The notes under the pieces: generated by a model | The model's input: only the letters and a program-made list of their open reading frames with translations | The model's database searches: none | What the model was told of the DNA's origin: nothing | Program-made: the position numbers and the translations under genes | From: an uncultured Acidobacteriota bacterium | GTDB taxonomy: Bacteria; Acidobacteriota; Terriglobia; Acidiferrales; UBA7541 | NCBI GenBank assembly: GCA_963846235.1 | Contig: CAWJVF010000003.1 | Span: 205,372-269,371, forward strand | DNA: 64,000 nucleotides | Direction: 5' to 3' | Shown here: one piece after another, positions 37,399 through 64,000 of the stretch | Position numbering within the stretch: the first letter of the stretch is position 1 | How the letters are laid out: every line of letters begins with the position of its first letter

Positions 37399-37980
37399 GG
37401 TCGCCTCACCATATGCATACCCACTCACTTCGGCTATGGCCGCGCCGAGATCTTTCGCGAGATGATCACAAATTATTTCCGCCGGTCGGTCGGGCTACGA
37501 TTGCCGTTGACGCCGTGCTGGTCGAATCGCGGCGCAAACATAGCAAATACATTACAAAATGTGGTCGGCGCGTCCGTAAGTCGTTTGTTAACGTCGTTCT
37601 AAGTGTTTATATAGAACGCTTGCTGTTGTTATCGGCATCGAAACCCTCCGGCCCCGTTGCGTTTCCGTCGGCCCCACCGTCAGGATCTGGACATAGGCAG
37701 TCGGATTGAATGAATGGTAGCCGCAAACTTCTGATTATGCGGTAAATAGGGGACCCTTTCACCTATTACACAGAAAATTTCGCCCCCCAAGGGTACTTGC
37801 CCCGAAGCCGGACTTTGGCCGCGCATTGCGGTTCAAATCAAGAGGACAAAACTCACATCTCCCACAAATATTCGTAACTGCATGGATCGGATAAGAATAG
37901 ACTGAATTGTTGGGTTAATTAATTTTAAGGTTCTGCTGATTTTACGGGGTTTACGCGCTGAACATCACGGCTTTTCGTCG

Positions 37981-38108
37981 TGGATTATCTGCTTTTCATC
38001 GCGGATTAACTGCTTCTTCCAGTTACTTCCAGTTGGTTATCCCTCTATCATGGATTATCTGCTTTTCATTGCGGATTAACTGCTTCCACTTAGTTATCCC
38101 TCTATCAA
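37981..38108. repeat. two tandem units (70 and 58 bp)
   Basis: TGGATTATCTGCTTTTCAT(C/T)GCGGATTAACTGCTTC...GTTATCCCTCTATCA occurs twice head to tail. Unit 1 has an extra internal CTTCCAGTTA duplication. Confidence 0.8.
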
Positions 38109-50347: not shown

Positions 50348-50490
50348 AATCGGCTCCATCACTCTCTGAGCAATTAGACTGCTGACCGTCTCGATGAGTC
50401 AACGGCGGGCGCACCCAAGTTGATGACAATCAATACGCAATGATTGGCCGAACGCTCTCTAGTCCAGATGGTGCATCGACCAGTTGATGT

Positions 50491-50563
50491 GGCACTGCGT
50501 ATCGGCACCTGGCTTTTTCGGCGATTCCCAGTTGCCGAGAATGCCGTTTTTCGGGAGTTAGAA
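50491..50563 (+). repeat. cassette-type repeat copy A
   Basis: TATCGGCACCTGGCTTTTTCGGCGATTCCCAGTTGCCGAGAATGCCGTTTTTCGGGAGTTAGAA aligns almost base for base with copy C. Confidence 0.7.
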
Positions 50564-50597
50564 CAGTTCGTTTGGAGGTGAGTCTCACCAGAAACAA

Positions 50598-51773
50598 CTA
50601 TCGCGCTGGCCAATTCCATGCGGGAAGGTCCATTTTCTTCATCCCCGCAATTGAAGTTTCGCCGAGGTTCTTTTCAAGCGTGATCGAATGGCAAGGAGCC
50701 TGATCCCGGAGAGCCACGATAAGCGGCGCTGCGTGCGTCACGACAACGATTTGTGTGCGTTTAGATGTCTGCGCAATCAAGCGCCCAAGCGGGGGCAGAA
50801 GGTCTGGGTGGAGGCTTGTCTCAGGCTCATTCAACACCATTAATGCGGGCGGTCTTGGGGTTAAGAGTGCGGCAATCCAAAGTAAGTACCGCAGCGTCCC
50901 GTCCGAAAGTTCCGCAGCATCCAAGGGTCTCAGCAATCCATGCTGTTCCATCGTCAGGGCAAATCGCCCGGAGTTAACCTCTATGGACAAACGACTGCCC
51001 GGAAAAGCGTCTGCGACAGCAGCAGCCAGTGCCTCACCGTCGCCAATCTCGCGGATAGTCTGAACCGCTGCTGCGAGATCGGCTCCGTCGTTACCGAGCA
51101 CTGGAGTGTGCGTACCAATCTGGGGAGAGCGCGCTGGTGCATCGGCATCTGTGCTGAAGTGGTCGTAGAAACGCCAGGCGCGTATGGATTCGCGCAGAGT
51201 TAACATCTCCGGTGCGTTTCTGGGATCGGCAACGTGAGTCATCATGCTATCGAAAGCGGAGAGGTGATCCGTCACCAGATTCCAGTCTTGCCCATCTCCA
51301 CGAATGCGCACGAGAGGTCCCTCCCGATCCACCAGCATCGTCGAGGGGCGAAGCGTTGGCCCATGCCAAATGCACTCGCGCTTAATCTCAGGATCAAGCA
51401 TGAACGCCGAAGGCTTCGCTTTGTCGTAGGCGGGCAAACCCAGGTCAATCAAATATCCGAACTCGTCGCCTGCAAAGCCGAGCCGAAGGTTTACCGGCTT
51501 CTTTCGTCTGGTGCCTTGAACGGGATACTCGCCCTTCTTCATAGAACGCGAAATCGATTCAGGACCAGCCCAAAGCGTCGATTGAAGGCCACCTTCGTGG
51601 GCCAGTGAGGGAACTACTCGGCCTTGCGCCGTGTCCGCCAGAAGTCGCAGTGCCCGGTAGAGACTCGATTTCCCGGTTCCGTTCGCGCCAGTGATGACGT
51701 TCAGCAACTGCAGGGGAATAATGAGATTCCGCAAGGAGCGATAGTTGCCGATGGCAAAGGTCGTCAGCATCAA
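50598..51773 (-). CDS. ABC/SMC-like ATPase (AAA_21-type) without a nuclease domain
   Basis: Walker A ITGANGTGKSS near the N-terminus. Walker B and D-loop LMVLNEPETSLHP. 391 aa. Confidence 0.8.
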   Translation of the reverse strand: MMLTTFAIGNYRSLRNLIIPLQLLNVITGANGTGKSSLYRALRLLADTAQGRVVPSLAHEGGLQSTLWAGPESISRSMKKGEYPVQGTRRKKPVNLRLGFAGDEFGYLIDLGLPAYDKAKPSAFMLDPEIKRECIWHGPTLRPSTMLVDREGPLVRIRGDGQDWNLVTDHLSAFDSMMTHVADPRNAPEMLTLRESIRAWRFYDHFSTDADAPARSPQIGTHTPVLGNDGADLAAAVQTIREIGDGEALAAAVADAFPGSRLSIEVNSGRFALTMEQHGLLRPLDAAELSDGTLRYLLWIAALLTPRPPALMVLNEPETSLHPDLLPPLGRLIAQTSKRTQIVVVTHAAPLIVALRDQAPCHSITLEKNLGETSIAGMKKMDLPAWNWPAR

Positions 51774-51802
51774 AGGTGATCGATCTTGGGAGTTCTAGGA
51801 AA

Positions 51803-53167
51803 CTATTGGATGGGAATTTGCGGACCGCCCAACAGTTTTGCATTCAGTAAGCCACCGGAGAAAAGCATTTCGTCCAAAGCCGAAGTCAGATCGTCGAGCG
51901 TGAGCTGCCCAGCCTGATAATTGTCTAAGGAAAACTGTGCCGAGCGGCGCATGAGTTCCTTGATGAAGGCGCCGCTTGCATTTTCTGTACGGCGCACGAT
52001 CTCTTGAACCACATTTTCAGGAACCTGGAGACCGCAGGCGTAAAGATGCACAAGTTGTCGGCGCCCTGCGGCGTCGGGCAGAGGGAACTCAATCGCCTGG
52101 TCGATCCGGCCCGGGCGCGATGCGATAGCGGCTTCGAGTTGTTGCGGGCGGTTGGTTGTAAGGACGAAGATTACCTCCGCGTCTTCGCGCAGACCATCCA
52201 TCTCATTTAGAAGCTTGTTTAATAGACTTTCCTCACAGGCACTGTCCATGGATTCACGAGAGCGGGCGATAAGATCGACGTCTTCGATGACAACGATGGA
52301 GGGTTGAAGGAACCTAGCGAGTTGGAAATAATGATCTAGCAGACCTACCTGTTCAGCGGTGATCAAAAGCGTAGTGTGATCGGGCAGTTGGCTCGCCAGA
52401 TAGTGAATTGTGTGAGTTTTCCCGGTTCCAGGCTGGCCATAAAAGAGCAAGCCCTTCTTAACGGGCATTCCAAGCTTTCTCAGTTCCCCGCGTTGTCTAA
52501 TGAATTCGGAAACGTTGCGTTCCAGCAACTGAAGAGTCTTGGCAGGGAGAACTAATTCACGACGGCTCACAGAACGGAGTTTGTGAACACGGACGCTGCC
52601 GGCTTGGCCAGAGTAATTGTCCGTCTGCTCTAGAGATATTACCTTTCCACGGTACGAAGTGGCGCGTTTAACGAGTTTCTCGATCTCGTCGAATAGCCGA
52701 CGTGAGAGAGCGGCACCCTCTTCACCGGGTGGCACAGCAATCTCCAGATGCGTCCCACTGTCACGGCCATAATTGATCGCAGGGGTGAGTAAAAGTGCAA
52801 ACCGAAGGTCGTTGCTCCTGGACAGCCAAAGACCATTGCTCAAACAGCGCGCAGGCACTAGTTCACCGATATCGACTTCGAAATGTTGTAGAGGTGCAAC
52901 GAGTGCTGGGTAATTGTCGATTGTCAGAAGCTCGGAGAATGTCATCGTTTCATGTCCGAAACGCCGGTGCAGGCCGATCAGCTCGGCCGTAAATTCTTCC
53001 CCAAATATTTTGGTGACGGCGAACTGCAGGTCAATCCGCGCAGAGACTGGAAATTTGCGACTAGCCGTAACCAACTGCTCTAGAGGCTGCTTCCTGAAAT
53101 GTCGCGCTAGTCTATGCGCAACGAGTGGTGGTGCGTTCGTTTTCTTGTTTCGCTTTGGGGTTCTCAC
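51803..53167 (-). CDS. classical AAA+ ATPase with a novel ~230-aa N-terminal domain
   Basis: Walker A GQPGTGKT, Walker B IVVIEDVD, second region of homology TTNRPQQLEAAIASRPGRID. The start is uncertain. GTG at 53167 was chosen because the 585-aa track ORF would overlap repeat copy B and the next gene. Confidence 0.75.
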   Translation of the reverse strand: MRTPKRNKKTNAPPLVAHRLARHFRKQPLEQLVTASRKFPVSARIDLQFAVTKIFGEEFTAELIGLHRRFGHETMTFSELLTIDNYPALVAPLQHFEVDIGELVPARCLSNGLWLSRSNDLRFALLLTPAINYGRDSGTHLEIAVPPGEEGAALSRRLFDEIEKLVKRATSYRGKVISLEQTDNYSGQAGSVRVHKLRSVSRRELVLPAKTLQLLERNVSEFIRQRGELRKLGMPVKKGLLFYGQPGTGKTHTIHYLASQLPDHTTLLITAEQVGLLDHYFQLARFLQPSIVVIEDVDLIARSRESMDSACEESLLNKLLNEMDGLREDAEVIFVLTTNRPQQLEAAIASRPGRIDQAIEFPLPDAAGRRQLVHLYACGLQVPENVVQEIVRRTENASGAFIKELMRRSAQFSLDNYQAGQLTLDDLTSALDEMLFSGGLLNAKLLGGPQIPIQ

Positions 53168-53227
53168 ACTAATATTTTGCCGTATGCGGCCAAAATGGGA
53201 AGTGTTTTGGGATGAGTACACACTCAA

Positions 53228-53287
53228 TTGACAACCTGTGGGAGCGCGGAAAGTCACATTCCGATAATCCCGTTTCTCAGGCGCTAT
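53228..53287 (+). repeat. cassette-type repeat copy B
   Basis: Right arm CACATTCCGATAATCCCGTTTCTCAGGCGC. The left arm is degenerate. Confidence 0.6.
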
Positions 53288-53320
53288 CTCGACCCCACAT
53301 GTGACGGCTATACTTTTCTG

Positions 53321-53980
53321 ATGGAGCAGCCCATTCACGTTGACCTGACCACAGCCTCGCTTGACGAGTTCGTCCTGTTTCTTTTTGACCGAGAGATACC
53401 CGCTTATTCTCAAAAGCAAGAGCCGTGGTATTGGCATGTGGAAGTGGAATTTGATGCAGCGAAGATCTGCACCTATTACGTGCAGTTGTTTCTGCAGCCG
53501 GAATTTCTGCTGACGCGTTTCACAAAACCTCAGCTTGAAGAAGGCTTCTGGGCCGTACAAGGCCCGAATCTAAGCTGTTCCGTGCAAAGGCTAATCGAAG
53601 ACTCAAGCCTACCGTTATCGCGTCGGGAAGAATGCATCCGTTCCATGTTTGATTTGTACAAGCGTCTTTTTGCGACGAAGCCACTGGATACTTCAGTTCA
53701 GATGTGGTGGGACTCCTTATGCTACGACTGGCATTGCGGGAACAAACAGCGCGAGCGGGGTGGTGAGGATTTGGAATTGCAAGAAGTCTTTTTTCAAACT
53801 CTCGTTAGGGTGCTTTCGATTGACTCAGAGATTTGTCAGCAAGCGGCCCTTCATGGATTGGGTCATCTCCATCATCCACAAACGGCGGAACTCATCGAGC
53901 AGTATCTTCGAGAACACCCTTCGTTACCGAAAGAGCGCAAAGAATATGCCCTTGCCGCTGCTAGGTTTGAGGTGCAGTAA
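53321..53980 (+). CDS. hypothetical cassette protein
   Basis: Start MEQPIHVDL just after copy B. 219 aa. Copy C begins 36 nt after the stop codon. Confidence 0.55.
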   Translation: MEQPIHVDLTTASLDEFVLFLFDREIPAYSQKQEPWYWHVEVEFDAAKICTYYVQLFLQPEFLLTRFTKPQLEEGFWAVQGPNLSCSVQRLIEDSSLPLSRREECIRSMFDLYKRLFATKPLDTSVQMWWDSLCYDWHCGNKQRERGGEDLELQEVFFQTLVRVLSIDSEICQQAALHGLGHLHHPQTAELIEQYLREHPSLPKERKEYALAAARFEVQ

Positions 53981-54015
53981 GCAGGATTCATTTGATCCTA
54001 AAATGTAAGACTCAG

Positions 54016-54099
54016 CGAACTCCTGATAAGTCTTATCGGCAACTGGATTTTTCGACGATTCGCAGTTGCCGAGAATCCCGTGTTCCTCCAAGGTTGGCT
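54016..54099 (+). repeat. cassette-type repeat copy C
   Basis: CGAACTCCTGATAAGTCTTATCGGCAACTGG, 16-nt loop, GCAGTTGCCGAGAATCCCGTGTTCCTCCAAGGTTGGCT. The arms are imperfect reverse complements. Confidence 0.75.
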
Positions 54100-54175
54100 G
54101 AGCGCTCAATTCGAGTTGGCCTGTGGTTGGAAAAGATTGCAAAATTGGGCCCTGATGCATTCCGGAGAAAATGTA

Positions 54176-54619
54176 ATGTCAGTTCCTACGGAAGCAGACT
54201 GGGGCGACTATCAATCCGATCTGGACCAGAATTATGCTCACAAGATATTCGCTGGCCGCACAAACCAAGAGATGCTTCCTCGCTTTCGCAACAATGTAAT
54301 TGAGGCAACCGATGAACTGCGATGGATGCCGGAAGTGCCGTTTCGATATTACATACTTGGCTTTCGGGATTTCGTGATGGCAGGAGAATTTAACCACTTG
54401 GAGGCTTCGGACGCGGCAAGTTGCTTTATACGTCTTGTTTTGGAGAAACTCGAAAAACAACCAAGCTATATCCTGCCTGTCATGCCGCAGTTACTTCCGG
54501 CTATTCAGCACGTCGCGATGAATCAGGCGTCATTTGAAGCAAGTGAGGACATTTATGGAAATTTTCAAGAGAAATTGGGGCGCATCGAAGCGCTCTACGA
54601 CACCCTCGGTCGCTCGTAA
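54176..54619 (+). CDS. hypothetical cassette protein
   Basis: Start MSVPTEADWGDY with GGAG 9 nt upstream. 147 aa. The TAA stop codon lies inside the first bases (GTAAC) of copy D. Confidence 0.55.
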   Translation: MSVPTEADWGDYQSDLDQNYAHKIFAGRTNQEMLPRFRNNVIEATDELRWMPEVPFRYYILGFRDFVMAGEFNHLEASDAASCFIRLVLEKLEKQPSYILPVMPQLLPAIQHVAMNQASFEASEDIYGNFQEKLGRIEALYDTLGRS

Positions 54620-54700
54620 CTCCTTATAAGTCGCATTTCCGAAACCTGGCTCTAGGCAGAAAAGCCAGTTAGCGATAATCCCGTTTTCCGGGACTTGGGC
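54618..54700 (+). repeat. cassette-type repeat copy D
   Basis: AACTCCTTATAAGTCGCATTTCCGAAACCTGGCT, loop, AGCCAGTTAGCGATAATCCCGTTTTCCGGGACTTGGGC. 18 of 32 arm positions pair. Confidence 0.75.
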
Positions 54701-54889
54701 TTACAATGTTTCCCATGTCCTCCGGAGGTCTAGCTCCTGGTATTTGCTTTATTCTCGCTGCGGGCCGTTGCGGCGATCTCTCTGTGTGGCGTTAGGGTTC
54801 GCGATTCGAGACGCCGGCTATAGGCTGCCTAATGCGAGGGTATTCGTTGCGGCTGGCAATCACGCGAATATCCCTGACCGGGCTGTAAT

Positions 54890-55387
54890 ATGCACAGTCT
54901 AATCCTTCCAGAGCGAGTCACGATTCAACTTGTCGACAAAAATAAGGTTCCGGTTAAGTTATCCAATATCTTGTTTGGGATTAGGGCTTTTGCGAGACGC
55001 AAGAACGATTTTAATCTCCAGCCATTTCCAACCGGCAATGACGGACTCGTTACAATCACCAGCAAGGAATTAGAAGCAGACGTTACCGCGAACTATGACT
55101 CGGGCGTAATGGACTATGCGCACATTAGCGACTGTTCACCATCGGTAGAAATACGGATTCTAACCGAGGAAGAGATAAAAAGTGCCGTGGACGCCAGGAA
55201 AATATGGACAAAACTCTTGGCCGGAGAACGGGATCGATGGAAATCGTTAGAACAACTGCTGACGCTCTATAGAAATGCCAACAATGGAAGACTGCTCGCC
55301 GACGAGTGCCCTCCTATGCGCGTAGAGTGGAGAGAGGGTGGAGCTGAATACTCATACAAGTTTGTTGTGGCATACAAGTACCCGTGA
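54890..55387 (+). CDS. hypothetical cassette protein
   Basis: 165-aa ORF followed by repeat copy F. Confidence 0.5.
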   Translation: MHSLILPERVTIQLVDKNKVPVKLSNILFGIRAFARRKNDFNLQPFPTGNDGLVTITSKELEADVTANYDSGVMDYAHISDCSPSVEIRILTEEEIKSAVDARKIWTKLLAGERDRWKSLEQLLTLYRNANNGRLLADECPPMRVEWREGGAEYSYKFVVAYKYP

Positions 55388-55454
55388 TTTTGGTGGTGAT
55401 CCAAGAGGAAATGTTCTCTGTCTGGTTGTGAGCGCTGTCGTCGAGATCCGATGA

Positions 55455-55512
55455 CGGATGGCACCAAGAAATCGCGGCGCACACTCCGATAAGACCGTTT
55501 CTCTGGAGCGGA
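55455..55512 (+). repeat. cassette-type repeat copy F
   Basis: Right arm CACACTCCGATAAGACCGTTTCTCTGGAGCGG closely matches copy B. The left arm is degenerate. Confidence 0.55.
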
Positions 55513-55605
55513 GTCGCCTCCGCCAGTTTCAACAGCGGAACATTTGCGTTTGTAGGACGGCACTGAGTAGAAAATGATATTAGAATCAGAGCAAGCGTGC
55601 CGGGA

Positions 55606-55836
55606 TCAGGCGGATACAGATTCGAGTTCGTGGGCAAAGACCCGTTGGCATTTCGGGTCAGCGCACGCTGCGGCGACGGCACGCCCCATTCCCATCTCCA
55701 TCCCAAACACAATGGCGTTGAGCGGGCTCTCGGTGTACACATGAGCGTTTGGGAAGACTATGAACAGCAGAAAGGCTAACCACGTCGAGAGCCAATACAG
55801 TCCAGCCGTGAGTAGGAAATTTCGAAGGTTCGACAC
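55606..55836 (-). CDS. possible small membrane protein
   Basis: 76 aa with two hydrophobic segments. Sole plausible ORF between copies F and E. Confidence 0.3.
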   Translation of the reverse strand: MSNLRNFLLTAGLYWLSTWLAFLLFIVFPNAHVYTESPLNAIVFGMEMGMGRAVAAACADPKCQRVFAHELESVSA

Positions 55837-55938
55837 AATTCATTCTAGAACGGTGTCAGACAGGTGGACGGCGTTACGAATTAGCCAGTTTCCAGCTGTG
55901 TACCCTGCCGGGCTCGGCTTTCGTAGCGTCTATCCGCG

Positions 55939-56013
55939 ATAAGTCCTGTGAAGTCGGGTTCTCGGAAACTGGGATTTCCCGCATTCCGAAGATCGCGTCT
56001 ATCGGGAGGTGGT
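55939..56013 (+). repeat. cassette-type repeat copy E (uninterrupted reference for the IS target)
   Basis: GATAAGTCCTGTGAAGTCGGGTTCTCGGAAACTGGGATTTCCCGCATTCCGAAGATCGCGTCTATCGGGAGG. Confidence 0.75.
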
Positions 56014-56334
56014 ATCGGGCTGCATTGAATCACTTCTTTTGTGGTTGGTTCTCGAATAAAAGTACCCTGATAGGGCTAGAGCCAAAGAAATAAGCGCAAC
56101 AAGTGCGATCCATTCGTCACGCGGATGCTGTAGCTGATAAGGAATATAAGGGTGGTTAGTCTGAAGGTCACACGACATGTTTGAATAGTCGAAACTCCCG
56201 TGAAGAGCAGACAGGCATCGGTCGACCATCAGCCATTCACGCGAAAAACGATAGGTGACAGAGATTAGAGCGCCCCCAGCAAGGAAGGCGAGAATCAGCC
56301 GCCAACATATCCTCATGATCGAATGAGACACCAT
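55999..56334 (-). CDS. small integral membrane protein
   Basis: Hydrophobic segments ICWRLILAFLAGGALISV and WIALVALISLALALSGYF. The start is uncertain (56334, 56316 or 56403). Confidence 0.45.
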   Translation of the reverse strand: MVSHSIMRICWRLILAFLAGGALISVTYRFSREWLMVDRCLSALHGSFDYSNMSCDLQTNHPYIPYQLQHPRDEWIALVALISLALALSGYFYSRTNHKRSDSMQPDTTSR

Positions 56335-56398
56335 TCTTGCCCTACAAGTTCCCCAAAACGTCAGGAGATCGTCGAAAGCATAACCTTTGGCAAACGAT

Positions 56399-56428
56399 GC
56401 CAAGTCCTGCTAAGTCGGTTTTTCGGAA
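56399..56428 (+). repeat. cassette-type repeat copy H, left arm (split by IS copy 1)
   Basis: GCCAAGTCCTGCTAAGTCGGTTTTTCGGAA aligns with the left arms of copies D and E. Confidence 0.75.
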
Positions 56429-56676
56429 TGTATGGTCCGCCGCCGAGTTGCAAGCGGAAAGATGAGCTTGGCAGTTGGTCTGCGCCAATGTATTCGGCCT
56501 TTGGTGGAGTCAATGACTCCTGGCCTTGATGGACATCCGCTCGCCTTCGCCCCTATAAACTGGACGGTCTGGTTAGGACCTTTTCCGAAAGCAGGTTCCG
56601 AAAGCGTGGGATCGACCCATTGCCATCAACTCTCCGCAAGCAAACCGGGAAGGAACTTTTTTCTAAACCGGGATTT
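56429..56676 (-). ncRNA. candidate bridge/seek guide RNA locus in the IS 3' non-coding end
   Basis: 248-bp non-coding end conserved in both IS copies. It contains two TTCCGAAAG motifs (56583-56591, 56596-56604) and AAACTGG (56557-56563) matching the target core, and AATGTAT (56487-56493) matching the IS left junction. No structure was computed. Confidence 0.35.
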
Positions 56677-57708
56677 TTAGGTGGACACAGCAAGGACGGG
56701 AGCGCGATAGCGTTCCCCCTTGCACAACACGGCCCAGGCCATTCGGACTAGCTTATTGGCCAACGCTACGATGACCACGTTCTGGTGTTTGCGAGCCAAC
56801 AATTGAGCCAACCACGAACTGAGACCCGGAGCCTGCCGGTGTCGCTGCTGCAGGACGCTGCGTGCGCCCTGCACGAAGAGTCGTCGTAGGTAGGAGTTGC
56901 CGCGTTTGCTGATGCCCAGTAAGGTTTGCTTTCCTCCGCTGGAATGCTCGCCGGGCACCATGCCGATCCAGGCCGCTAGGTCTCGACCTCTGCCAAACGC
57001 ACTCCCGTTACCCACGGCAGCGATCACGGCGGTGGCCGTGACTGGGCCCACTCCTGGGATGGTGGTGAGTCGCTGGCAGGCCTCATCCTCTTTGGCTCTT
57101 TCCAGGATAGCCACATCCAGCTGATCAATGCGTGCGGAGAGTTGCTCGAGTTCCAGCTTCAGCTGAGCCAACAACAGCCGAAACGAACCCGATAACGGCA
57201 ACTCGGCATCTTCCAAGATCCGCGGCAGAGCTTCCTCCACATAACGTCGGCCTTTGGGTAGTGTCAATCCACGTTCTAGAAGAAGACTGCGGATCTGGTT
57301 GACCACCGCCGTGCGTCGCATGACCCAGCGTTCCCGCACGCGATGCAGCGTTTGCAAATCCAGCTGCTCCTCGCTCTTAATTGGCACAAAACGCATCCGC
57401 GGCCGTTGCACTGCTTCGGCTATAGCTTCCGCATCGATGTAGTCGCTCTTGTTGGTCTGCACGTACGGCTTCACGTACTGCGCGGGCATCAATCGCACGT
57501 CGTGTCCCTGATCGCGCAGAGCGCGGCCCAGAAAGTGCGAGCCACTACAAGACTCCATGCCAATCAACTGCACTTGCAAAGTCGCGGTGAAGGCCAACAA
57601 CTGCCCGCGGGAACATCTCTTGCGAATTACCACCTTCCCAGTCGAATCCAAACCCACCAGATGGAAAACGGTCTTACCCAAATCGATGCCGAGTACGTGA
57701 AGTTTCAT
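56677..57708 (-). CDS. IS110 family DEDD transposase/recombinase
   Basis: MKLHVLGIDLGKTVFHLVGLD N-terminus and C-terminal IPGVGPVTATAVIAAVGNG...GISKRGNSYLRRL motif. AGGAGG upstream of the ATG at 57708. Confidence 0.9.
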   Translation of the reverse strand: MKLHVLGIDLGKTVFHLVGLDSTGKVVIRKRCSRGQLLAFTATLQVQLIGMESCSGSHFLGRALRDQGHDVRLMPAQYVKPYVQTNKSDYIDAEAIAEAVQRPRMRFVPIKSEEQLDLQTLHRVRERWVMRRTAVVNQIRSLLLERGLTLPKGRRYVEEALPRILEDAELPLSGSFRLLLAQLKLELEQLSARIDQLDVAILERAKEDEACQRLTTIPGVGPVTATAVIAAVGNGSAFGRGRDLAAWIGMVPGEHSSGGKQTLLGISKRGNSYLRRLFVQGARSVLQQRHRQAPGLSSWLAQLLARKHQNVVIVALANKLVRMAWAVLCKGERYRAPVLAVST

Positions 57709-57769
57709 GGAATGCCTCCTGGCCCCGGACTCTACACTCAAAGAGTCTCGGCGGCGGACCATCCCATTA

Positions 57770-57822
57770 ACTGGGATTTCCGAATCCCACATTCCGAAAA
57801 TCCCGTTTGTCAGGAGTTGGCT
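57770..57822 (+). repeat. cassette-type repeat copy H, right arm
   Basis: ACTGGGATTTCCGAATCCCACATTCCGAAAATCCCGTTTGTCAGGAGTTGGCT. The outer end CAGGAGTTGGC is the complement of the left-arm start GCCAAGTCCTG with one mismatch. Confidence 0.75.
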
Positions 57823-57949
57823 TTAGTCAAGTGAGACTGTACTTCGGAACAGTATAGGTTTCGACAGTGATTCAGGACTTTAATCTCAAAGCCTCACTCT
57901 CCCAGTTAAAATCGACTCTCGTGGCGATTCGCAGGCGGAGGGACGACGA

Positions 57950-58432
57950 ATGAATGCGACCCAAACGATGACATCTCCCGTCCACACGGCTCACAAGCCT
58001 ATTCGAGTGTTTTGGAAATGGTCTTTCTTCATCACGGCCATAGTGCTTGCTTTCTTTATGTGGCAGTGCGGTTCGGGACTCCTTCAGGGTCGGCGTTCGT
58101 CGAACGAGGCCGTTCGACAATTCCACCAACAGCTAAATGCTGGTGAGTATGAGCTAATCTGTCAGGAAGCCAGCGAGGGCTTTACGCGTTCGGCCAAACA
58201 CGATGAATTAGTGAACTTCCTCAATGGGGTGCATACGAAACTCGGCTCTGCAGCAAGCGAAAGCCTCCTCAATATCGGCGTCAATGCGAATACAAACGGA
58301 ACTTTCATCACCACTCGCTATAACACGCAATTCGCAAATGGGTCAGCTGTTGAGACATTCACTTGGATAAAGTCAGCGGGCACCTTGAAACTACACGGAT
58401 ACAACGTGCAGTCTCAAGCGCTCCTCAAGTGA
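57950..58432 (+). CDS. membrane-anchored hypothetical cassette protein
   Basis: N-terminal TM segment FWKWSFFITAIVLAFFMW. 160 aa. Confidence 0.5.
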   Translation: MNATQTMTSPVHTAHKPIRVFWKWSFFITAIVLAFFMWQCGSGLLQGRRSSNEAVRQFHQQLNAGEYELICQEASEGFTRSAKHDELVNFLNGVHTKLGSAASESLLNIGVNANTNGTFITTRYNTQFANGSAVETFTWIKSAGTLKLHGYNVQSQALLK

Positions 58433-58543
58433 AAAGGGTCCTTCTCCAAGAAGGCCGCACCGCCAGACCTACCGATTGTGTAGGAGTCGGTTGGTACTGG
58501 TAGTCTAGGCTGAGATTCGGCCATACCTTCAAACGAGGACACG

Positions 58544-59122
58544 ATGCCATATTCGTGGCGGCGGCTGATATTGGGACTCGTGGTTGGTGGCTCTGTTTTT
58601 TGGGGTGTCATGACACTCCTGCGAACGTCGCGTTTGATTCCGCCACCCCCAAGAGATACGCAAGCCAACACTTGTCTATCTGGCAGTACGTGTATCGTTA
58701 CGTTGGGAGACGAAAGCTATACGGTACAGGGACCTTGCGACGTCACAAGCGTCTCTTCAATCAGTACTTGCCATGTGCTGTTCACTCTTCCGAAGGGCAC
58801 GATCGACGATGCCCGTCTCGCCATGCTCCCGTTCATGGTCTTCTTATGGGCTTTAGCGTGGTGTCTGCGCTATATGCCACCGCGCATCACGAACCCATGG
58901 ATAAAGGTGCCGTTAATCGTGTTATTAGCCGTTGGAACTGGCGGGCCCGCGATAGGTGAGCTCGTCGTTTTTCGTGCGAGGGCTGGAATTAAAGGAGAAC
59001 TGTTCAAAGGAGACCCCTTTTCGTTCGCAATTTTTATTGCTGGAGAACTTCTCGTCCTCTGTATCATGTTCAGCAGCGCAACCGCTCGGAAGAAAAGACA
59101 GCAAATTATAAAACCCGCCTAA
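58544..59122 (+). CDS. integral membrane hypothetical protein
   Basis: 192 aa with four hydrophobic segments. Confidence 0.5.
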   Translation: MPYSWRRLILGLVVGGSVFWGVMTLLRTSRLIPPPPRDTQANTCLSGSTCIVTLGDESYTVQGPCDVTSVSSISTCHVLFTLPKGTIDDARLAMLPFMVFLWALAWCLRYMPPRITNPWIKVPLIVLLAVGTGGPAIGELVVFRARAGIKGELFKGDPFSFAIFIAGELLVLCIMFSSATARKKRQQIIKPA

Positions 59123-59186
59123 GAAGTGTACGTCTGAGACCTCGACTCTGGAGCCATCGCAAGCCCGCGGGCTCTTCTTTTGAAAC

Positions 59187-59216
59187 GCCAAGTCCTGGAA
59201 AGTCGTCTTTCCGGAA
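59187..59216 (+). repeat. cassette-type repeat copy I, left arm (split by IS copy 2)
   Basis: GCCAAGTCCTGGAAAGTCGTCTTTCCGGAA. Confidence 0.75.
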
Positions 59217-60546
59217 TGTATGGTCCGCCGCCGAGTTGCAAGCGGAAAGATGAGCTTGGCAATTGGTCTGCGCCAATGTATTCGGCCTTCAGTGGAGTCA
59301 GCGACTCCGGGCCTTGATGGACATCCGCTCGCCTTCGCCCCTATAAACTGGACGGTCTGGTTAGGACCTTTTCCGAAATCAGGTTCCGAAAGCGTGGGAT
59401 CGACCCATTGCCATCTTTCCGCGAGCAAACCGGTGAGAGAACTGTTTTCTAAACCGGGGTTTTAGGTGGCAAGAACGGGAGCGCGATAGCTTTCGTTCTT
59501 GTACAACACCGCCCAGGCCATTCGGACCACCTTATTAGCCAGTGCTACGACGACAACATTCTGGTGTTTGCGAGCCAGCAATTGCGCTAGCCAGGAGCTA
59601 AGACCGGGAGCCTGCCGGTGTCGTTGTTGCAAGACGCTGCGGGCGCCTTGTACGAAGAGGCGTCGCAAGTAGGAGTTACCTCGCTTGCTGATGCCCAGTA
59701 ACGTTTGCTTTCCGCCGCTGGAATGCTCGCTCGGCACCATGCCGACCCACGCCGCCAAATCTCGGCCCCTTTTAAAAGCGCTTCCGTTACCAACCGCAGC
59801 AATCAGAGCGGTGGCAGTGACTGGGCCCACTCCTGGAATCGCGGTGAGTCGCTGACAGGCGTCATCCTCTTTGGCTCTTTTCAGGATGACTGCATCCAGC
59901 TGATCGATGCGTGCGGAGAGTTGCTCGAGTTCCAGCTTCAGCTGAGCCAACAGCAGCCGAAACGAGCCCGCCAGCGCAACTCTGCATCTTCTAGGATCCG
60001 TGGCAAGGCTTCCTCCACATAACTTCGGCCCTTGGGTAATGTGAATCCGCGTTCCAAAAGGAGGCTGCGGATCTGGTTCACTACGGCCGTGCGTCGCATC
60101 ACCCAACGCTCACGCACTCGATGGAGAGCTTGCAGATCCAGTTGCTCTTCCGACTTGATCGGCACAAACCGCATCCGCGGCCGTTGCACCGCTTCCGCTA
60201 TAGCTTCCGCATCGATGTAATCGCTCTTGTTGGTCTGCACATAAGGTTTCACGTACTGCGCGGGCATCAACCGCACCTGGTGCCCCTGATCGCGCAGAGC
60301 GCGGCCCAGAAAATGCGAGCCACTACAAGACTCCATGCCAATCAACTGCACTTGCAAATTCGCGGTGAAGGTCAGTAACTGTCGGCGGGAACATCTCTTG
60401 CGAATCACTACCTTCCCAGTCGAATCCAAACCCACCAGATGGAAAACCGTTTTACCCAGGTCAATGCCGAGTACATGTAGTTTCATGGAATGCCTCCTGG
60501 CCCCGGACTCTACACTTCAAAGTCTCGGCGGCGGACCATCCCATTA
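59217..60546 (-). mobile_element. IS110 family insertion sequence, copy 2 (about 1.33 kb), defective
   Basis: Collinear with copy 1 across its whole length with scattered substitutions. Same ends (TGTATGGTCCGCC ... GGACCATCCCATTA). Confidence 0.85.
59462..60486 (-). pseudogene. IS110 family transposase, frameshifted
   Basis: Split into 182-aa and 214-aa ORFs. Compared with copy 1 there is a 1-bp deletion in the segment encoding AELPLSGSF (about 59975-59990). Confidence 0.85.
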
Positions 60547-60600
60547 ACTGGCTTTCCGCTGATTTCCAGTTGCCAAAAATCCCGTTTCGCAGGACTCGTG
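60547..60600 (+). repeat. cassette-type repeat copy I, right arm
   Basis: ACTGGCTTTCCGCTGATTTCCAGTTGCCAAAAATCCCGTTTCGCAGGACTCGTG. Confidence 0.75.
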
Positions 60601-60829
60601 CATCCCGGCAAGAACAAACTTCCAGCTAATCGTTCTGTTCCACTTCCATTGTCAGCCTAGCACAGCCAGTGCGAAACTGTAAGGCTGCGCTTACGAGCGG
60701 AATTCACCAGAGTGCCTCACTGGCGATAACGATGGTCCCAATCGGCTAGGTCTATACTAAGGCCCGTTTTAGCGTCACACGGTTTTTATATCTCCGGCGG
60801 GTTGTCATAGCAGGTTCGTCGCCGAACAT

Positions 60830-62554
60830 CTAATGCTTTGCGGTAGCACCCTGCTCGTGAGATTCCATGGTGCTCCCCATCAGCACGATCAGGCCGTCCG
60901 CAAGAGTGCCCCGCCAACTCAAGTAATCGTGCCCACCTACGAATTCCTGGTAGTGAACTTCATATCCTTTAGCGAGGAGCACATCGCGCATGTGCCGGTT
61001 AGGCACCAAAATGGCACCACCGTGCCCTGTTACATCAATTTCATCGCTGCCCGCATCGATATAAAATCGCAGCGGCAGATGAGGACTCATGATGTATTGA
61101 TTTGCCAACCAATTGGGTTCGGCATTCGGATCGAAATCATCGGGGTTGTCATTCCGTGGCGGCGTCCACCAATAAGAGCCTGATTGCGAGAGAATGTTTC
61201 CGAATGTCTCCGGGTGACGGAATCCCGCATAAGCAGCCGCGAGCCCACCATAACTCGACCCGCCAACGACGGTCTGCTGCGGATCATTGGTGATGTTAAA
61301 CAATCGCCGTACCCATGGAACTAGCTCAAAGTTCAAAAAATCGGCGAAAGTGGGGTTGCAAGGAAGCTCGCGGGATCGCGCATCTCCGTTGGGATTGTCG
61401 ATCAGCACCGCAACCATTCGCGGAATCCGATTTTCAGCAATAAGGTTATCGAGAATTGTAGGTGTGGGAATAATCTTGTCGTCCGTGTAAGGCTTTTCAT
61501 CAAAGAGAACAATCAGACCGTAAGGTTTTGCATCACTTGAATATCCCGGTGGTGTATAGACCGTGACTTCACGTTCATTCTTCAGTAGGGCGCTTTTGAA
61601 CTGGTGTTTCTCGACTTTACCCGTGGGCACGCCTTTTCGTTGTGCGACCCACGGCTGAGTTGGTGCGCCGGGCATTTCAACGGCTGAGACACCCAAGTGC
61701 TCGGGAACGTCGGGATTTAACGGATTTATGAGCCAGTGTTTCTGGTTGAGCGGGTCCACTTGGGCCGCCGCGAACGCGAACATGGTGGTCTCGTCAGACG
61801 GGTCCTGGAATGGACGAATTGGAGGACCATTTACGACGAGTTGGTAGATAAATCTTTTCCGTTTATCTACCGGCACGCTTCTGTACCAGACATTCGTTTC
61901 GCCAACTCGAATCAGCCGATAATCATCCGGGCGTTCAACAACAAAGGGATACCACAACACCGTCACGTTTTTAGTGTTTGCGTTTCCCTGCCACAGAAAC
62001 GTGACGAGCATCTCCTTTTCATTGCCTTCTAGCGGCTCAATCAAGGGCGCGCCCTTCGCTTTGACATCTTGCCAGAACGTTTCGATAGCATTTGCCTGCC
62101 CCTGATCTAGGGCGGTCCTGAATGCCTTGATTCGCGGGCTCTGGTATTTGTCGCCGACTGGAGCGATTCGATCTGCCAGGGCGACGATTCTTGTGAGCGT
62201 AATTGTGTACGATCCCTCTTTTGTAGTCGCGTCCAGAGCCACTTCGAGCCGGTATCCACCTGGATCATCGGCAATGAACTGAATTTTCCGGCCCGGGCCA
62301 TCGAAGCGGAAACCACGCACTTTGCTGCCGGAGGGACCGTAGATGGTGATGATGAGTTTGCTTCCATGCGTCACGACATTCGTTTCAGCCAGATCGCCTG
62401 CTTTCAATGTCAGAGAGTACGAGTCGGTTTTCGGGGCACTCAATGTGCCATCATGAGCTTTCCCGCCTTGGAGTTCGGTATCTGCTGCCCACGATCCTAA
62501 GCAGCTAACGAGGAGAAGCAGGACGGGTGTGAGGAGGGAGAATCTCTTGAGCAC
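60830..62554 (-). CDS. exported esterase (enterochelin-esterase-like alpha/beta hydrolase) with N-terminal beta-sandwich domains
   Basis: Signal peptide. GGSSYGGLAA nucleophile elbow. C-terminal His region GGHDY. Confidence 0.8.
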   Translation of the reverse strand: MLKRFSLLTPVLLLLVSCLGSWAADTELQGGKAHDGTLSAPKTDSYSLTLKAGDLAETNVVTHGSKLIITIYGPSGSKVRGFRFDGPGRKIQFIADDPGGYRLEVALDATTKEGSYTITLTRIVALADRIAPVGDKYQSPRIKAFRTALDQGQANAIETFWQDVKAKGAPLIEPLEGNEKEMLVTFLWQGNANTKNVTVLWYPFVVERPDDYRLIRVGETNVWYRSVPVDKRKRFIYQLVVNGPPIRPFQDPSDETTMFAFAAAQVDPLNQKHWLINPLNPDVPEHLGVSAVEMPGAPTQPWVAQRKGVPTGKVEKHQFKSALLKNEREVTVYTPPGYSSDAKPYGLIVLFDEKPYTDDKIIPTPTILDNLIAENRIPRMVAVLIDNPNGDARSRELPCNPTFADFLNFELVPWVRRLFNITNDPQQTVVGGSSYGGLAAAYAGFRHPETFGNILSQSGSYWWTPPRNDNPDDFDPNAEPNWLANQYIMSPHLPLRFYIDAGSDEIDVTGHGGAILVPNRHMRDVLLAKGYEVHYQEFVGGHDYLSWRGTLADGLIVLMGSTMESHEQGATAKH

Positions 62555-62675
62555 TGTGTCCTCCTATGAGCACGAAGGATTTGGCGCAAGACTATCACGG
62601 GTTGGTCTAAACCGCGGCAGAGCGTGGGCCGGGGCCACAGGTTCTGGAACTGACAATTACGCAGAAGCTTCTCGG

Positions 62676-63137
62676 CTATTCAACGCGGACCAGTTTTATG
62701 ACTGCTCCCGATGGCTTCTGAGTCAACACCAGCGCCTTCCCATTTACGGCGAATTCGTACTGGTTGCTTGCGCCTATGACGAACGCGCTCTTTGCCACCG
62801 TGGCTTTCGTTGTCAGCATGTTGGCGGTCACTGTGTACGTGCCGGAATTGAGGTAAATCGCATTAAAGACCGCTACCTTGTCAGCGTCGGTTGCCTTGTC
62901 ATTTGAGGGATAGTTGGGCAGTGGTCCCGTGCCGTTGATCCTCATGAAACTGTAGTGTTGTTCCGTAAAAATGTACAGACCCGGCTGAGGATTGGTGATC
63001 GGCGGCCTGCTCGCGTCGTCGATCTCCGTAACCCTCCAAGCTCCCACGAGCGGATTTCGCGTTGCCGGAGATTGACCATAGATTGTCACCGCAACAGCAA
63101 ACAACACGAGAAGTGTAATTCCGATCAGTCGGCGCAC
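62676..63137 (-). CDS. exported lipocalin-like domain protein
   Basis: Signal peptide, then LVGAWRVTEI..., typical of the lipocalin-like domain family. 153 aa. Confidence 0.55.
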   Translation of the reverse strand: MRRLIGITLLVLFAVAVTIYGQSPATRNPLVGAWRVTEIDDASRPPITNPQPGLYIFTEQHYSFMRINGTGPLPNYPSNDKATDADKVAVFNAIYLNSGTYTVTANMLTTKATVAKSAFVIGASNQYEFAVNGKALVLTQKPSGAVIKLVRVE

Positions 63138-63185
63138 TGGAGCCTCCTTTCCGTGTTTCTAGCCTGACGTTACTAAAGGTATTTG

Positions 63186-63440
63186 TTAGCCCTTCGCTTT
63201 CGCGGCCTCGCGCTTGCGCTGTAGGAACGCTTTCCGAACGCCACGACCGATCTTTGCCTTCATTGCCGCCGACATCGGCATTGATACGCGTGTACGTGTT
63301 GCCCCACCGTTGGCACTGGGGCCGCTGCCGTTTGAGAGAATCGCAATGGCTTTGTCAATGCGTCCGAGTTCACGTGCGAGTTCGCTGCGCCTGCTCTTCA
63401 ACGTCGAAATTACATCGTTCATTCGGGTTGTTGCCTCCAC
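63186..63440 (-). CDS. small basic hypothetical protein
   Basis: 84-aa ORF with no motif. Confidence 0.4.
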   Translation of the reverse strand: MEATTRMNDVISTLKSRRSELARELGRIDKAIAILSNGSGPSANGGATRTRVSMPMSAAMKAKIGRGVRKAFLQRKREAAKAKG

Positions 63441-63628
63441 TGAGATTCTATCCTAAACGCGACGCCAAAATAAGAAGTGGAGGCGGAAGCCGATGAATAG
63501 CGGGCCTCTAAGCGCCGATTGAATCTCGGGTCCGGGTCGGCGGCCTCTTCATCTTTCCTAATGCTTCCTGAAAATGCTCGGGTCATGGCTGTGGGCCAGT
63601 TGTGGGAAAATGGGATTTGGAGGCAAAC

Positions 63629-63805
63629 ATGGCGGCTAAAAGAGAACCCTCCAAGAAGGTTGTTGATAAGCACGCGAAGTTTCTTGCGGCATGGGAAGCG
63701 GCGGGATTCCCGGACAAATTTGAGTACGAAGGAACAACGCTTAATAACGTGCGGTCAACCGCTGACTGGTACCGAGAACAAAAGCTAAGAGCCGCCAGGG
63801 ACTAG
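63629..63805 (+). CDS. small hypothetical cassette protein
   Basis: Start MAAKREPSKK. The TAG stop codon lies inside the start of repeat copy G. Confidence 0.35.
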   Translation: MAAKREPSKKVVDKHAKFLAAWEAAGFPDKFEYEGTTLNNVRSTADWYREQKLRAARD

Positions 63806-63872
63806 GCATTCCCGAAGTGTGGCCCGGCTGAAATCCCAGTTTCCGGAAATCCCGTTTCTCAGGCACTAGGAT
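63800..63872 (+). repeat. cassette-type repeat copy G
   Basis: GACTAGGCATTCCCGAAGTGTGGCCCGGCTGAAATCCCAGTTTCCGGAAATCCCGTTTCTCAGGCACTAGG. Confidence 0.7.
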
Positions 63873-64000
63873 TCGCCCCCTGAAGTGACAGTCCATCCGC
63901 TACGGTCACGGCTAGGCAAGCAAGCATTCAGGGGCTGCCCGCTATCGTGCGAAATTGCTTCTGAGATAGAATCCCCGCTGCCCGGAGGCTGTTTTTATGC

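What the first reader, a model, noticed from the sequence alone, without database searches (positions are those of the whole stretch)
56399..60600. Two IS110/IS1111-type copies inserted at the same nucleotide position and orientation inside two different copies of the cassette repeat
- The uninterrupted copy E reads ...AAGTCGGGTTCTCGGAAACTGGGATTTCCCGCATTCCGAAGATC...
- At copy H the same sequence is split as ...AAGTCGGTTTTTCGGAA [IS 56429-57769] ACTGGGATTTCCGAATCCCACATTCCGAAAATC...
- At copy I it is split as ...AAGTCGTCTTTCCGGAA [IS 59217-60546] ACTGGCTTTCCGCTG...
- Both IS have the transposase on the minus strand and the same ends (TGTATGG... and ...CCCATTA).
- Both have a perfect 14-bp subterminal inverted repeat (GGTCCGCCGCCGAG) and an AA at both junctions. 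The AA may be a shared core dinucleotide.

Sequence-specific, orientation-specific insertion into a palindromic repeat is typical of the IS1111 subgroup of IS110, including the described group that targets attC sites. It also shows that the repeat is a recognised DNA target rather than part of the IS itself.
Basis: seen in the sequence. Interest (0 to 1): 0.7.

Follow-up and report, generated by a model that had tools for sequence, protein, structure and literature searches.

The report
RNA-guided IS1111 insertions in cassette repeats
Two diverged copies of an IS1111-family insertion sequence sit at the same base of two copies of a palindromic cassette-type repeat, because an RNA encoded in the element's own 3' end base-pairs with that site; this is a new acidobacterial member of a known kind of mobile element.

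Summary
Two insertion sequences (56429-57769, intact; 59217-60546, frameshifted) interrupt two copies of an ~85-bp palindromic repeat at the same position and in the same orientation.

They have the full IS1111 anatomy:
- a DEDD transposase;
- 16-bp subterminal inverted repeats, with 7-bp left and 3-bp right extensions;
- a 248-nt non-coding region 3' of the gene;
- no target duplication.

The positional precision is explained by an RNA guide. The non-coding region carries TTTCGGAA(A), complementary to the right flank, and CCAGTTT, identical to the left flank plus TT. The two words lie on opposite sides of an internal loop closed by covarying stems.

In 67 copies with both flanks readable (65 from Acidobacteriota genomes plus the two window copies), the two words change together with the flanks: 33 and 24 distinct words, and 0 of 10,000 permutations did as well. 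In 26 further soil-metagenome copies the first word matched at 8/8 positions in 17 and 7/8 in 6; the second, readable with its flank in 19 of them, matched at 5/5 in 11.

The transposase is only 35% identical to ISKpn4, so this is not the described IS1111-attC clade. The repeats look like attC sites in a cassette array without an integrase. That identity is not proven.

Verdict: new member of a known kind; moderate-to-low interest.

The parts
56429..57769 (-). IS copy H, complete IS1111-family element (1341 bp)
   Evidence: Ends are defined against empty site E and about 110 relatives.
56677..57708 (-). Transposase gene, intact, 343 aa (DEDD/RuvC-like domain plus Tnp_20 domain)
   Evidence: Pfam PF01548 and PF02371. 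NCBIfam NF033542, 358.6 bits. 35% identical to TnpKpn4, with the SSG motif aligned.
57747..57769 (-). Left end: 7-bp extension TAATGGG (57763-57769) plus 16-bp subterminal inverted repeat (57747-57762)
   Evidence: Read from the sequence. Conserved in 69 elements with both ends.
56429..56447 (-). Right end: 16-bp subterminal inverted repeat (56432-56447) plus 3-bp extension ACA (56429-56431)
   Evidence: The upstream TTGCAA plus 17 nt plus CA|TAAT would form a sigma-70 promoter on a circular RE-LE junction (my reading of the sequence).
56480..56643 (-). Predicted seekRNA / bridge RNA in the 3' non-coding region (outer stem to outer stem)
   Evidence: Consensus fold of 62 distinct sequences: 40 pairs, 99.2% paired, 9 pairs with compensatory changes, slid controls at most 46%.
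56582..56590 (-). Guide T (TTTCGGAAA), complementary to the transposase-strand target T|TTCCGAAA (right flank)
56557..56563 (-). Guide B (CCAGTTT), identical to left flank CCAGT plus TT, so it pairs with the other DNA strand
56393..56428 (+). Left half of repeat copy H (R''-L'' arm)
   Evidence: nhmmer profile positions 2-37.
57770..57825 (+). Right half of repeat copy H
   Evidence: nhmmer profile positions 37-95. The rejoined halves fold as an ~80-nt DNA hairpin, -27.2 kcal/mol, z = -8.2.
59217..60546 (-). IS copy I (1330 bp), transposase inactivated by a 1-nt deletion near 59978
59462..60486 (-). Transposase pseudogene of copy I (two overlapping ORFs)
59370..59378 (-). Guide T of copy I (TTTCGGAAA); its own site TTCCGGAA has one mismatch
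59345..59351 (-). Guide B of copy I (CCAGTTT)
59184..59216 (+). Left half of repeat copy I
60547..60603 (+). Right half of repeat copy I
55934..56016 (+). Uninterrupted repeat E; holds an empty near-cognate site (55960-55972, minus strand, 1 mismatch)
63784..63875 (+). Uninterrupted repeat J; holds an empty near-cognate site in the other arm (63836-63848, + strand, 1 mismatch)
50476..50565 (+). Uninterrupted repeat A
54010..54097 (+). Uninterrupted repeat C
54612..54703 (+). Uninterrupted repeat D (the stop codon of the upstream ORF lies in its first arm)
53245..53286 (+). Partial repeat B (right arm only)

Best explanation
These are two members of an IS1111-family insertion sequence lineage that is common in Acidobacteriota. 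Each was inserted independently by RNA-guided site-specific recombination.

Proposed mechanism:
1. The 3' non-coding region of the element is transcribed into a structured RNA (a seekRNA, or bridge RNA).
2. One internal loop of that RNA carries two short guides. One pairs with the 8-9 nt to the right of the crossover on one DNA strand. The other pairs with the 5 nt to the left, plus the TT core, on the other strand.
3. The DEDD transposase, loaded with this RNA, joins a circular form of the element to any site reading CCAGT-TT-CCGAAA.
4. That word occurs in one arm of a palindromic, cassette-type (probably attC) repeat, so two different repeat copies were hit at the same base and in the same orientation.

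What is shown and what is inferred:
- Shown: the element's anatomy, the family placement, the guide-target complementarity, the covariation of guides with flanks across relatives, and the covarying RNA stems.
- Inferred from the family (PMC11187229, PMC11208160): transcription of the RNA, its binding to the transposase, the circular intermediate with a junction promoter, and the exact cleavage positions.
- Consequence, also inferred: each insertion splits the repeat and should immobilise the cassette if the repeat is an attC.
For: Anatomy:
- 16-bp subterminal repeats with 7-bp and 3-bp extensions; 61 nt upstream of the gene against 248 nt downstream; no duplication. PMC11187229 gives these as IS1111 hallmarks.

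Guides in the window:
- TTTCGGAAA pairs with T|TTCCGAAA.
- CCAGTTT equals CCAGT|TT.
- The strand order is top then bottom, as reported for IS1111 seekRNAs.

Covariation, first set (67 copies with both flanks readable: 65 from 80 genome loci plus the two window copies):
- Guide T matches its own right flank at 7.37 of 8 positions, and perfectly in 47 of 67. Against non-cognate flanks it matches 5.23 of 8.
- Guide B matches 4.28 of 5 against 2.64 of 5.
- There are 33 distinct T words and 24 distinct B words. No class-level permutation out of 10,000 reached the observed match, for either guide.

Covariation, independent replication (45 metagenome copies found through the right-end sequence alone):
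- T could be read in 26 copies: 17 matched 8/8 and 6 matched 7/8.
- B could be read with its flank in 19 copies: 11 matched 5/5 and 7 matched 4/5.
- New guide/target pairs appeared, such as TTGTGGAA with TTCCACAA.

RNA structure:
- The guides lie on opposite strands of an internal loop closed by stems with compensatory changes: GC to AU in 20 sequences, CG to GC in 9.
- Overall 99.2% of cells are paired, against at most 46% when partners are slid.

Selection:
- The guide-RNA part is 96.3% identical between the two copies and the coding region 85.8%.
- Codon differences run 95 synonymous to 23 non-synonymous.

A junction promoter TTGCAA-17 nt-CATAAT would form across the joined right and left ends (my reading).
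Against: - No RNA or circular junction has been observed; everything is computational.
- The single-sequence fold of the RNA is not better than shuffles (z = -0.81). Support for the structure rests on covariation among related, non-independent sequences.
- No convincing donor-binding guide was identified. There are only candidates: an invariant AUACAU, which equals the right end plus T, and UCCAUC.
- Rfam 15 has no family that matches.
- Copy I sits at a site with one mismatch to its own guide. A few relatives show 1-5 of 8 matches. These may be mis-delimited ends, tolerated mismatches or later guide drift.
- The donor core (TA) and the target core (TT) differ at the second base in the window copies.
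Confidence: 0.88

Rival explanations
1. The target repeat is not an integron attC. It is a REP-like or other extragenic palindrome. The element would then resemble the REP-targeting IS1111/IS110 members (ISPa11, ISPpu9, IS621) rather than the attC-targeting ones.
For: - No integron integrase was found in the window or in about 125 related loci. The IntI-like hits are 295-aa recombinases below the NCBIfam IntI cut-off (195-213 against 265 bits). In the two loci examined downstream (L076, L042) they are followed by an IS91-family-type transposase read by eye, not Pfam-tested.
- Only 3 of 7 copies have GTT at the outer right box.
- Only copy H folds significantly better than shuffles.
- Related elements lie at several distant places in one genome.
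- IS30-type and IS91-associated modules, both read by eye, abut the same repeat in related loci, as is common for intergenic palindromes.
Against: - All 8 copies in the window lie within 13.4 kb (50476-63875), on one strand, with none in the other 50 kb.
- They follow mostly small same-strand ORFs without known domains. One stop codon lies inside the first arm.
- The length of about 85 bp and the outer/inner arm layout fit attC better than a 20-40-nt REP.
- Related loci show further copies at 0.7-1.2 kb spacing.
- Acidobacteria have taxon-specific chromosomal attCs (PMC8352920).
- Clusters of attC sites without an integrase are common (PMC4889954).
Confidence: 0.3
2. Target choice is made by the protein alone, which recognises the hairpin or cruciform shape of the repeat. 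This was the pre-2024 view of IS1111 specificity. The guide-like words would be coincidental.
For: The target lies at a 2x2 mismatch in a long hairpin. In many relatives the insertion falls in the 3' arm of a predicted hairpin (35 of 66).
Against: - The guide words change with the flanks in 33 and 24 classes, with no permutation out of 10,000 doing as well, and this was replicated.
- Empty sites do not fold better than control windows (Mann-Whitney p = 0.50).
- Several relatives sit in non-palindromic sequence that still matches their guides.
Confidence: 0.04
3. The two copies arose by segmental duplication of one IS-bearing cassette, or the shared flanks belong to a longer composite element that includes the repeat arms.
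For: The flanks of both copies are similar for about 35-55 bp on each side.
Against: - That similarity is the repeat itself, which also exists uninterrupted in 5 copies.
- Beyond the repeat the flanks are unrelated.
- The two elements differ by 14% in the coding region.
- About 110 relatives have the same sharp ends next to varied flanks.
Confidence: 0.02

Closest known systems
IS1111-attC group (ISPst6, ISKpn4, ISPa21; Tetu & Holmes 2008; Post & Hall 2009; seekRNA shown for ISKpn4 and ISPst6 in PMC11187229)
   Same: - IS1111 anatomy.
- Insertion at one fixed point in the R''-L'' half of a cassette recombination-type site.
- The transposase is antisense to the cassette genes. I checked this for ISKpn4 in plasmid pHK31_1.
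- Guide RNA encoded 3' of the gene.
- Similar TAATGG and CCATA end motifs.
   Different: - Transposase only 35% identical, whereas members of that group are 74-90% identical to one another.
- Different target word and position. ISKpn4 sits 8 nt after ATCTAAC, at AATTCACA|CCTTCAAG. Here the break is 22 nt after the outer box, at TTTTCGGAA|ACTGG.
- Host phylum is Acidobacteriota, not Pseudomonadota.
- The attC status of the target is unproven.
ISEc11 / ISXne4 (natural reprogramming of an IS1111 seekRNA, PMC11187229)
   Same: Close relatives keep the RNA stems and change only the two target-matching words, together with the flanks (one search compared).
   Different: That case is one pair of elements. 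Here there are dozens of guide/target classes in one lineage, including sublineages (CCAGT against CCACA) that fit the two arms of the same palindromic repeat.
IS621 and other IS110-group bridge RNAs (PMC11208160, PMC11208158)
   Same: An internal loop with two guides that read opposite strands and overlap at a core dinucleotide. DEDD recombinase with a C-terminal Ser (SSG) domain.
   Different: - The RNA is at the 3' end, not the 5' end.
- The guide order is reversed.
- The subterminal repeats are long.
- No simple donor-binding internal loop was found. Candidate donor words lie in a multiloop, as that paper notes for many IS1111 elements.
REP-targeting IS1111/IS110 elements (ISPa11, ISPpu9)
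   Same: Site- and orientation-specific insertion in a repeated palindrome.
   Different: The target here is about 85 bp, clustered and unidirectional, not short and dispersed.

Membership tests
IS1111 family (within IS110) | DEDD (RuvC-like) transposase with a Transposase_20 C-terminal domain | tested here: met
   PF01548 at 2.8e-21 and PF02371 at 1.3e-25. NF033542 at 358.6 bits, cut-off 140.
IS1111 family (within IS110) | Subterminal inverted repeats of about 11-17 bp, with asymmetric extensions of 7 bp (left) and 3 bp (right) | tested here: met
   TAATGGG-ATGGTCCGCCGCCGAG ... CTCGGCGGCGGACCAT-ACA in both copies. The criterion comes from PMC11187229.
IS1111 family (within IS110) | Long non-coding region downstream of the transposase gene | tested here: met
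   248 nt downstream against 61 nt upstream.
IS1111 family (within IS110) | Specific target, no target-site duplication | tested here: met
   Left flank plus right flank equals empty site E. Flank words are conserved among copies that carry the same guides.
IS1111 family (within IS110) | seekRNA with a top-strand match 5' of a bottom-strand match, the two overlapping in the target | tested here: met
   In silico only. Expression and protein binding were not testable.
IS1111 family (within IS110) | Circular intermediate whose RE-LE junction forms a promoter | not testable with these tools
   The sequence would give TTGCAA-17 nt-CATAAT across the junction. No reads or PCR were available.
IS1111-attC group | Transposase clusters with ISPst6, ISKpn4 and ISPa21 | tested here: not met
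   35% identical to TnpKpn4 and 39% to TnpPa25. Identity within the group is 74-90%.
IS1111-attC group | Same insertion point and target word in attC | tested here: not met
   ISKpn4 breaks at AATTCACA|CCTTCAAG, 8 nt after R''. Here the break is at TTTTCGGAA|ACTGG, 22 nt after the outer box.
IS1111-attC group | Target is an integron attC site | tested here: inconclusive
   See the attC rows below.
Integron attC site / CALIN (cluster of attC sites lacking an integrase) | At least 2 sites within 4 kb of each other, on one strand, after promoterless ORFs | tested here: met
   8 copies on the + strand within 50476-63875. ORF layout.
Integron attC site / CALIN (cluster of attC sites lacking an integrase) | Outer boxes R'' RYYYAAC and R' GTTRRRY, complementary to each other | tested here: inconclusive
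   H has GCCAAG/GTTGGC and C has GCGAAC/GTTGGC. Only 3 of 7 copies have GTT.
Integron attC site / CALIN (cluster of attC sites lacking an integrase) | Single strand folds into a hairpin with extrahelical bases | tested here: inconclusive
   H gives -27.2 kcal/mol, z = -8.2, with bulges in the left arm. The other copies give z = -0.5 to -1.8.
Integron attC site / CALIN (cluster of attC sites lacking an integrase) | Detected by the attC covariance model (IntegronFinder or HattCI) | not testable with these tools
   The model is not available here. Rfam has none.
Integron attC site / CALIN (cluster of attC sites lacking an integrase) | Integron integrase nearby (needed for a complete integron, not for a CALIN) | tested here: not met
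   No hit in the window. Hits in related loci are IS91-linked recombinases below the IntI cut-off.
IS110-group bridge RNA (IS621 type) | Bridge RNA in the 5' (left) non-coding end, with separate target and donor internal loops | tested here: not met
   The RNA is in the 3' end. A target loop is present, but no simple donor loop was found.

The most novel reading that the evidence does not exclude
This acidobacterial lineage acquired targeting of cassette-type recombination sites independently of the Pseudomonas IS1111-attC group, simply by evolving its guide words.

Its sublineages (CCAGT..., CCACA..., CCACT... and others) have diversified to follow the sequence variation of both arms of these palindromic sites. 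That makes it a natural, many-fold reprogramming series of a bridge/seek RNA.

If the repeats are true attCs, this would be a second, convergent origin of integron-parasitic IS1111 elements.
Probability: 0.5. Interest if true: 0.45.

Novelty: new member of a known kind. Interest (0 to 1): 0.35.

Why it matters
- It gives a mechanistic reason for a striking positional coincidence.
- It adds a well-populated natural series to the RNA-guided IS1111 recombinases, which are of interest as programmable genome-insertion tools. The series has more than 100 copies and about 40 guide/target pairs.
- If the repeats are attC sites, cassette arrays of soil Acidobacteriota are parasitised by guide-RNA elements unrelated to the clinical IS1111-attC group. 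Each insertion would freeze a cassette in place.

Tried and rejected
- **Integron integrase.** tblastn with IntI1 (sequence recalled from memory) found nothing in the window. It found four 295-aa recombinases in related loci. NCBIfam puts them below the IntI cut-off. They lack the IntI-specific insertion; I compared the sequences by eye and ran no alignment. In the two loci examined downstream (L076, L042) they sit in front of a protein I read by eye as an IS91-family transposase, and in all four the module abuts the repeat at a GAAC boundary. I rejected them as integron evidence.
- **Group II intron.** A second conserved sequence lies next to many IS targets (GTGCCGGCTCAACCGGTCGATGCAACAC). 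Rfam gave no hit. In L044 the adjacent ORF looks by eye like an IS30-family transposase.
- **Global hairpin test.** Empty sites do not fold better than control windows (p = 0.50). A strict palindrome test gave only 6 of 65 sites against 15 of 890 controls. The structural signal is weak outside close relatives.
- **Exact-protein look-ups.** Two window proteins were looked up to extend the contig; neither is on record.
- **Rfam on the non-coding region.** Only a chance sub-threshold snoRNA hit.
- **Single-sequence fold of the RNA.** Not significant.
- **Tetu & Holmes 2008.** The paper is not held in the library.
- **Not run.** The heavy protein searches and the structure prediction, because they would not change the verdict.

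Full report
**Observation.** The region holds two insertion sequences, 56429-57769 (H, 1341 bp) and 59217-60546 (I, 1330 bp). On the + strand both start TGTATGG and end CCCATTA, and both have the transposase on the minus strand. H encodes an intact 343-aa protein. In I a 1-nt deletion near 59978 splits the frame. The flanks are ...TTTTTCGGAA|ACTGGGATTT (H) and ...CTTTCCGGAA|ACTGGCTTTC (I). The uninterrupted repeat E reads CTCGGAAACTGGGATTT, so there is no target duplication. A profile built from the repeat copies finds 8 copies. All are on the + strand, all lie between 50476 and 63875, and there are none in the first 50 kb. The profile places both breaks at the same position, 37/38.

**What the elements are.** The protein has the DEDD_Tnp_IS110 and Transposase_20 domains. 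It passes NCBIfam's 'IS110 family RNA-guided transposase' model at 358.6 bits against a cut-off of 140. Read on the transposase strand, the ends are TAATGGG-ATGGTCCGCCGCCGAG ... CTCGGCGGCGGACCAT-ACA. That is a 16-bp subterminal inverted repeat with a 7-bp left and a 3-bp right extension. There are 61 nt before the gene and 248 nt after it. Siddiquee et al. (PMC11187229) give exactly these features as distinguishing IS1111 from IS110.

The two copies are not recent duplicates. The coding region is 85.8% identical, with 95 synonymous against 23 non-synonymous codon differences. The left end is 95.1% identical and the distal 191 nt of the non-coding region 96.3%. The non-coding RNA region is therefore under at least as much constraint as the protein.

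**Relatives.** A scan of one genome per species found 542 relatives. The best 80 (70-86% amino-acid identity) are all from Acidobacteriota/Terriglobia metagenome-assembled genomes, so the window probably comes from that phylum. This is an inference. A total of 69 elements have both ends, always TAATGGG-ATGGTCCGCCGC ... GCGGCGGACCAT-ACA, next to varied flanks. A metagenome scan with the last 25 nt of the element gave 45 more copies from soils.

**Mechanism.** In the non-coding region of H, TTTCGGAAA (56582-56590) is the reverse complement of T|TTCCGAAA, the right flank. CCAGTTT (56557-56563) equals the left flank CCAGT plus TT. The two matches overlap at TT. The top-strand match lies 5' of the bottom-strand match, as described for IS1111 seekRNAs.

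Across relatives these two words change together with the flanks. Examples are TATCGGAA with TTCCGATA, TCTCGTCA with TGACGAGA, AAACCGGAA with TTCCGGTTT, GGGAAAAA with TTTTTCCC, CCACATT with CCACA|TT, and CCACTTT with CCACT|TT.

In numbers:
- Guide T matches its own flank at 7.37 of 8 positions, and perfectly in 47 of 67 copies. Against non-cognate flanks it matches 5.23 of 8.
- Guide B matches 4.28 of 5 against 2.64 of 5.
- With one representative for each of 33 T words and 24 B words, no permutation out of 10,000 reached the observed match.
- The independent metagenome set replicates this. T matched 8/8 in 17 of 26 copies and 7/8 in 6. B, readable with its flank in 19 copies, matched 5/5 in 11 and 4/5 in 7. 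New pairs appeared.

A consensus fold of 62 distinct sequences puts the two guides on opposite sides of an internal loop closed by two stems with compensatory changes. Overall 40 pairs are 99.2% paired, 9 pairs show double changes, and slid controls reach at most 46%. This is the target-binding-loop design of bridge RNAs (PMC11208160), placed at the 3' end as in IS1111.

An invariant AUACAU in a multiloop equals the right end plus T, and is a candidate donor guide. I could not define the donor loop. Joining the right and left ends would create TTGCAA-17 nt-CATAAT, a junction promoter of the kind known for this family (for the sequence; for the precedent). Transcription, protein binding and circle formation are inferred, not shown.

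The AA at 56427-56428 is TT on the transposase strand, the overlap of the two guides. It is a reasonable target core. At the other junction the dinucleotide is TA and belongs to the element. One base (T) is shared at both junctions, so the boundaries are ambiguous by one nucleotide.

**Orientation.** The rejoined repeat H is a long imperfect hairpin (-27.2 kcal/mol, z = -8.2). Its two arms read CCCAGT|TTCCGAAAA on the bottom strand and CCCACA|TTCCGAAAA on the top strand. Only the first matches the guides, and this explains the orientation. Relatives with CCACATT guides occupy the other arm of similar repeats. Relatives with the window's guides occupy whichever arm carries CCAGTTTCCGAAA. Orientation is therefore set by sequence. 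Repeats E and J each hold an unoccupied site with one mismatch.

**What the repeat is.**
In favour of attC sites in an integrase-less cluster:
- clustering of the copies;
- a single orientation;
- a size of about 85 bp;
- an outer/inner arm layout;
- small same-strand ORFs without known domains;
- a stop codon inside the first arm of repeat D;
- further copies at cassette-like spacing in related loci;
- known taxon-specific attCs in Acidobacteria, and the frequency of such clusters in general.

Against:
- no integron integrase anywhere in the data;
- GTT at the outer right box in only 3 of 7 copies;
- weak folding of most copies.

The IntI-like hits turned out to be tyrosine recombinases paired, where I looked downstream, with IS91-family-type transposases. 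I put attC identity at about 0.6-0.7.

**Comparison with the known group.** TnpKpn4 is 35% identical and TnpPa25 39%. ISKpn4 in a class 1 integron sits 8 nt after the R'' box of the qacL attC, antisense to the cassette. The element here is also antisense and in the same half of the site, but at a different word and depth. It works like the IS1111-attC group but is not a member of that clade.

**Verdict.** This is an RNA-guided IS1111-family element, a new acidobacterial member of a known kind. A specialist would not be surprised. The useful extra is the large natural series of reprogrammed guides.

Noticed in passing
L017, L019, L023, L044, L083, L086, L090, L097, L100, L118 (right flank of the IS, about 12-13 nt after the insertion point): Many related IS copies are followed almost at once by a second conserved sequence, (G/T)GCCGGCTCAACCGGTCGATGCAACAC. 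In L044 this sequence precedes a 360-aa ORF that I read by eye as an IS30-family transposase (not Pfam-tested). The same repeat arm appears to be a hot spot for a second IS family.
   Followed up: partly
L031 6090-7004, L076 4380-6541, L042 4652-6860, L049 157-1170: 295-aa IntI/Xer-like tyrosine recombinases lie next to repeat arms, with a conserved boundary TTG|AAC(T/G)AAGCCGC about 105-135 bp upstream of the gene. In L076 and L042 they are followed by ~395-aa proteins that I read by eye as IS91-family transposases. They fall below the integron-integrase cut-off.
   Followed up: partly
window 30875-30980 (-): A SAM-I/IV riboswitch aptamer: Rfam RF01725, 59.7 bits against a gathering score of 41.1.
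   Followed up: no
window 50598-53560 (-): Between repeat A and partial repeat B lie two minus-strand ATPase genes. One has AAA_21/AAA_15 (AbiEii-type) domains and the other is a classic AAA protein of 585 aa. They could be a defence-type gene pair carried as a reverse-oriented cassette.
   Followed up: no
window 53245-53286 and about 55485-55510: Right-arm-only fragments of the repeat (TTCCGATAATCCCGTTTCTCAGG and TCCGATAAGACCGTTTCTCTGG). They may be decayed or truncated sites.
   Followed up: no
window 37115-37190 and 37957-38107: Short tandem or dispersed repeats (23-nt unit x3.2; 21-nt unit x2.2, plus 39-nt and 25-nt direct repeats) in an intergenic stretch after the 753-aa ORF. Function unknown.
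   Followed up: no
window 56436-56458 (-): A conserved hairpin, UCCGCUUGC...GGCGGA, overlaps the right subterminal repeat and the predicted -35 box. It could end the guide RNA or be part of end recognition.
   Followed up: no
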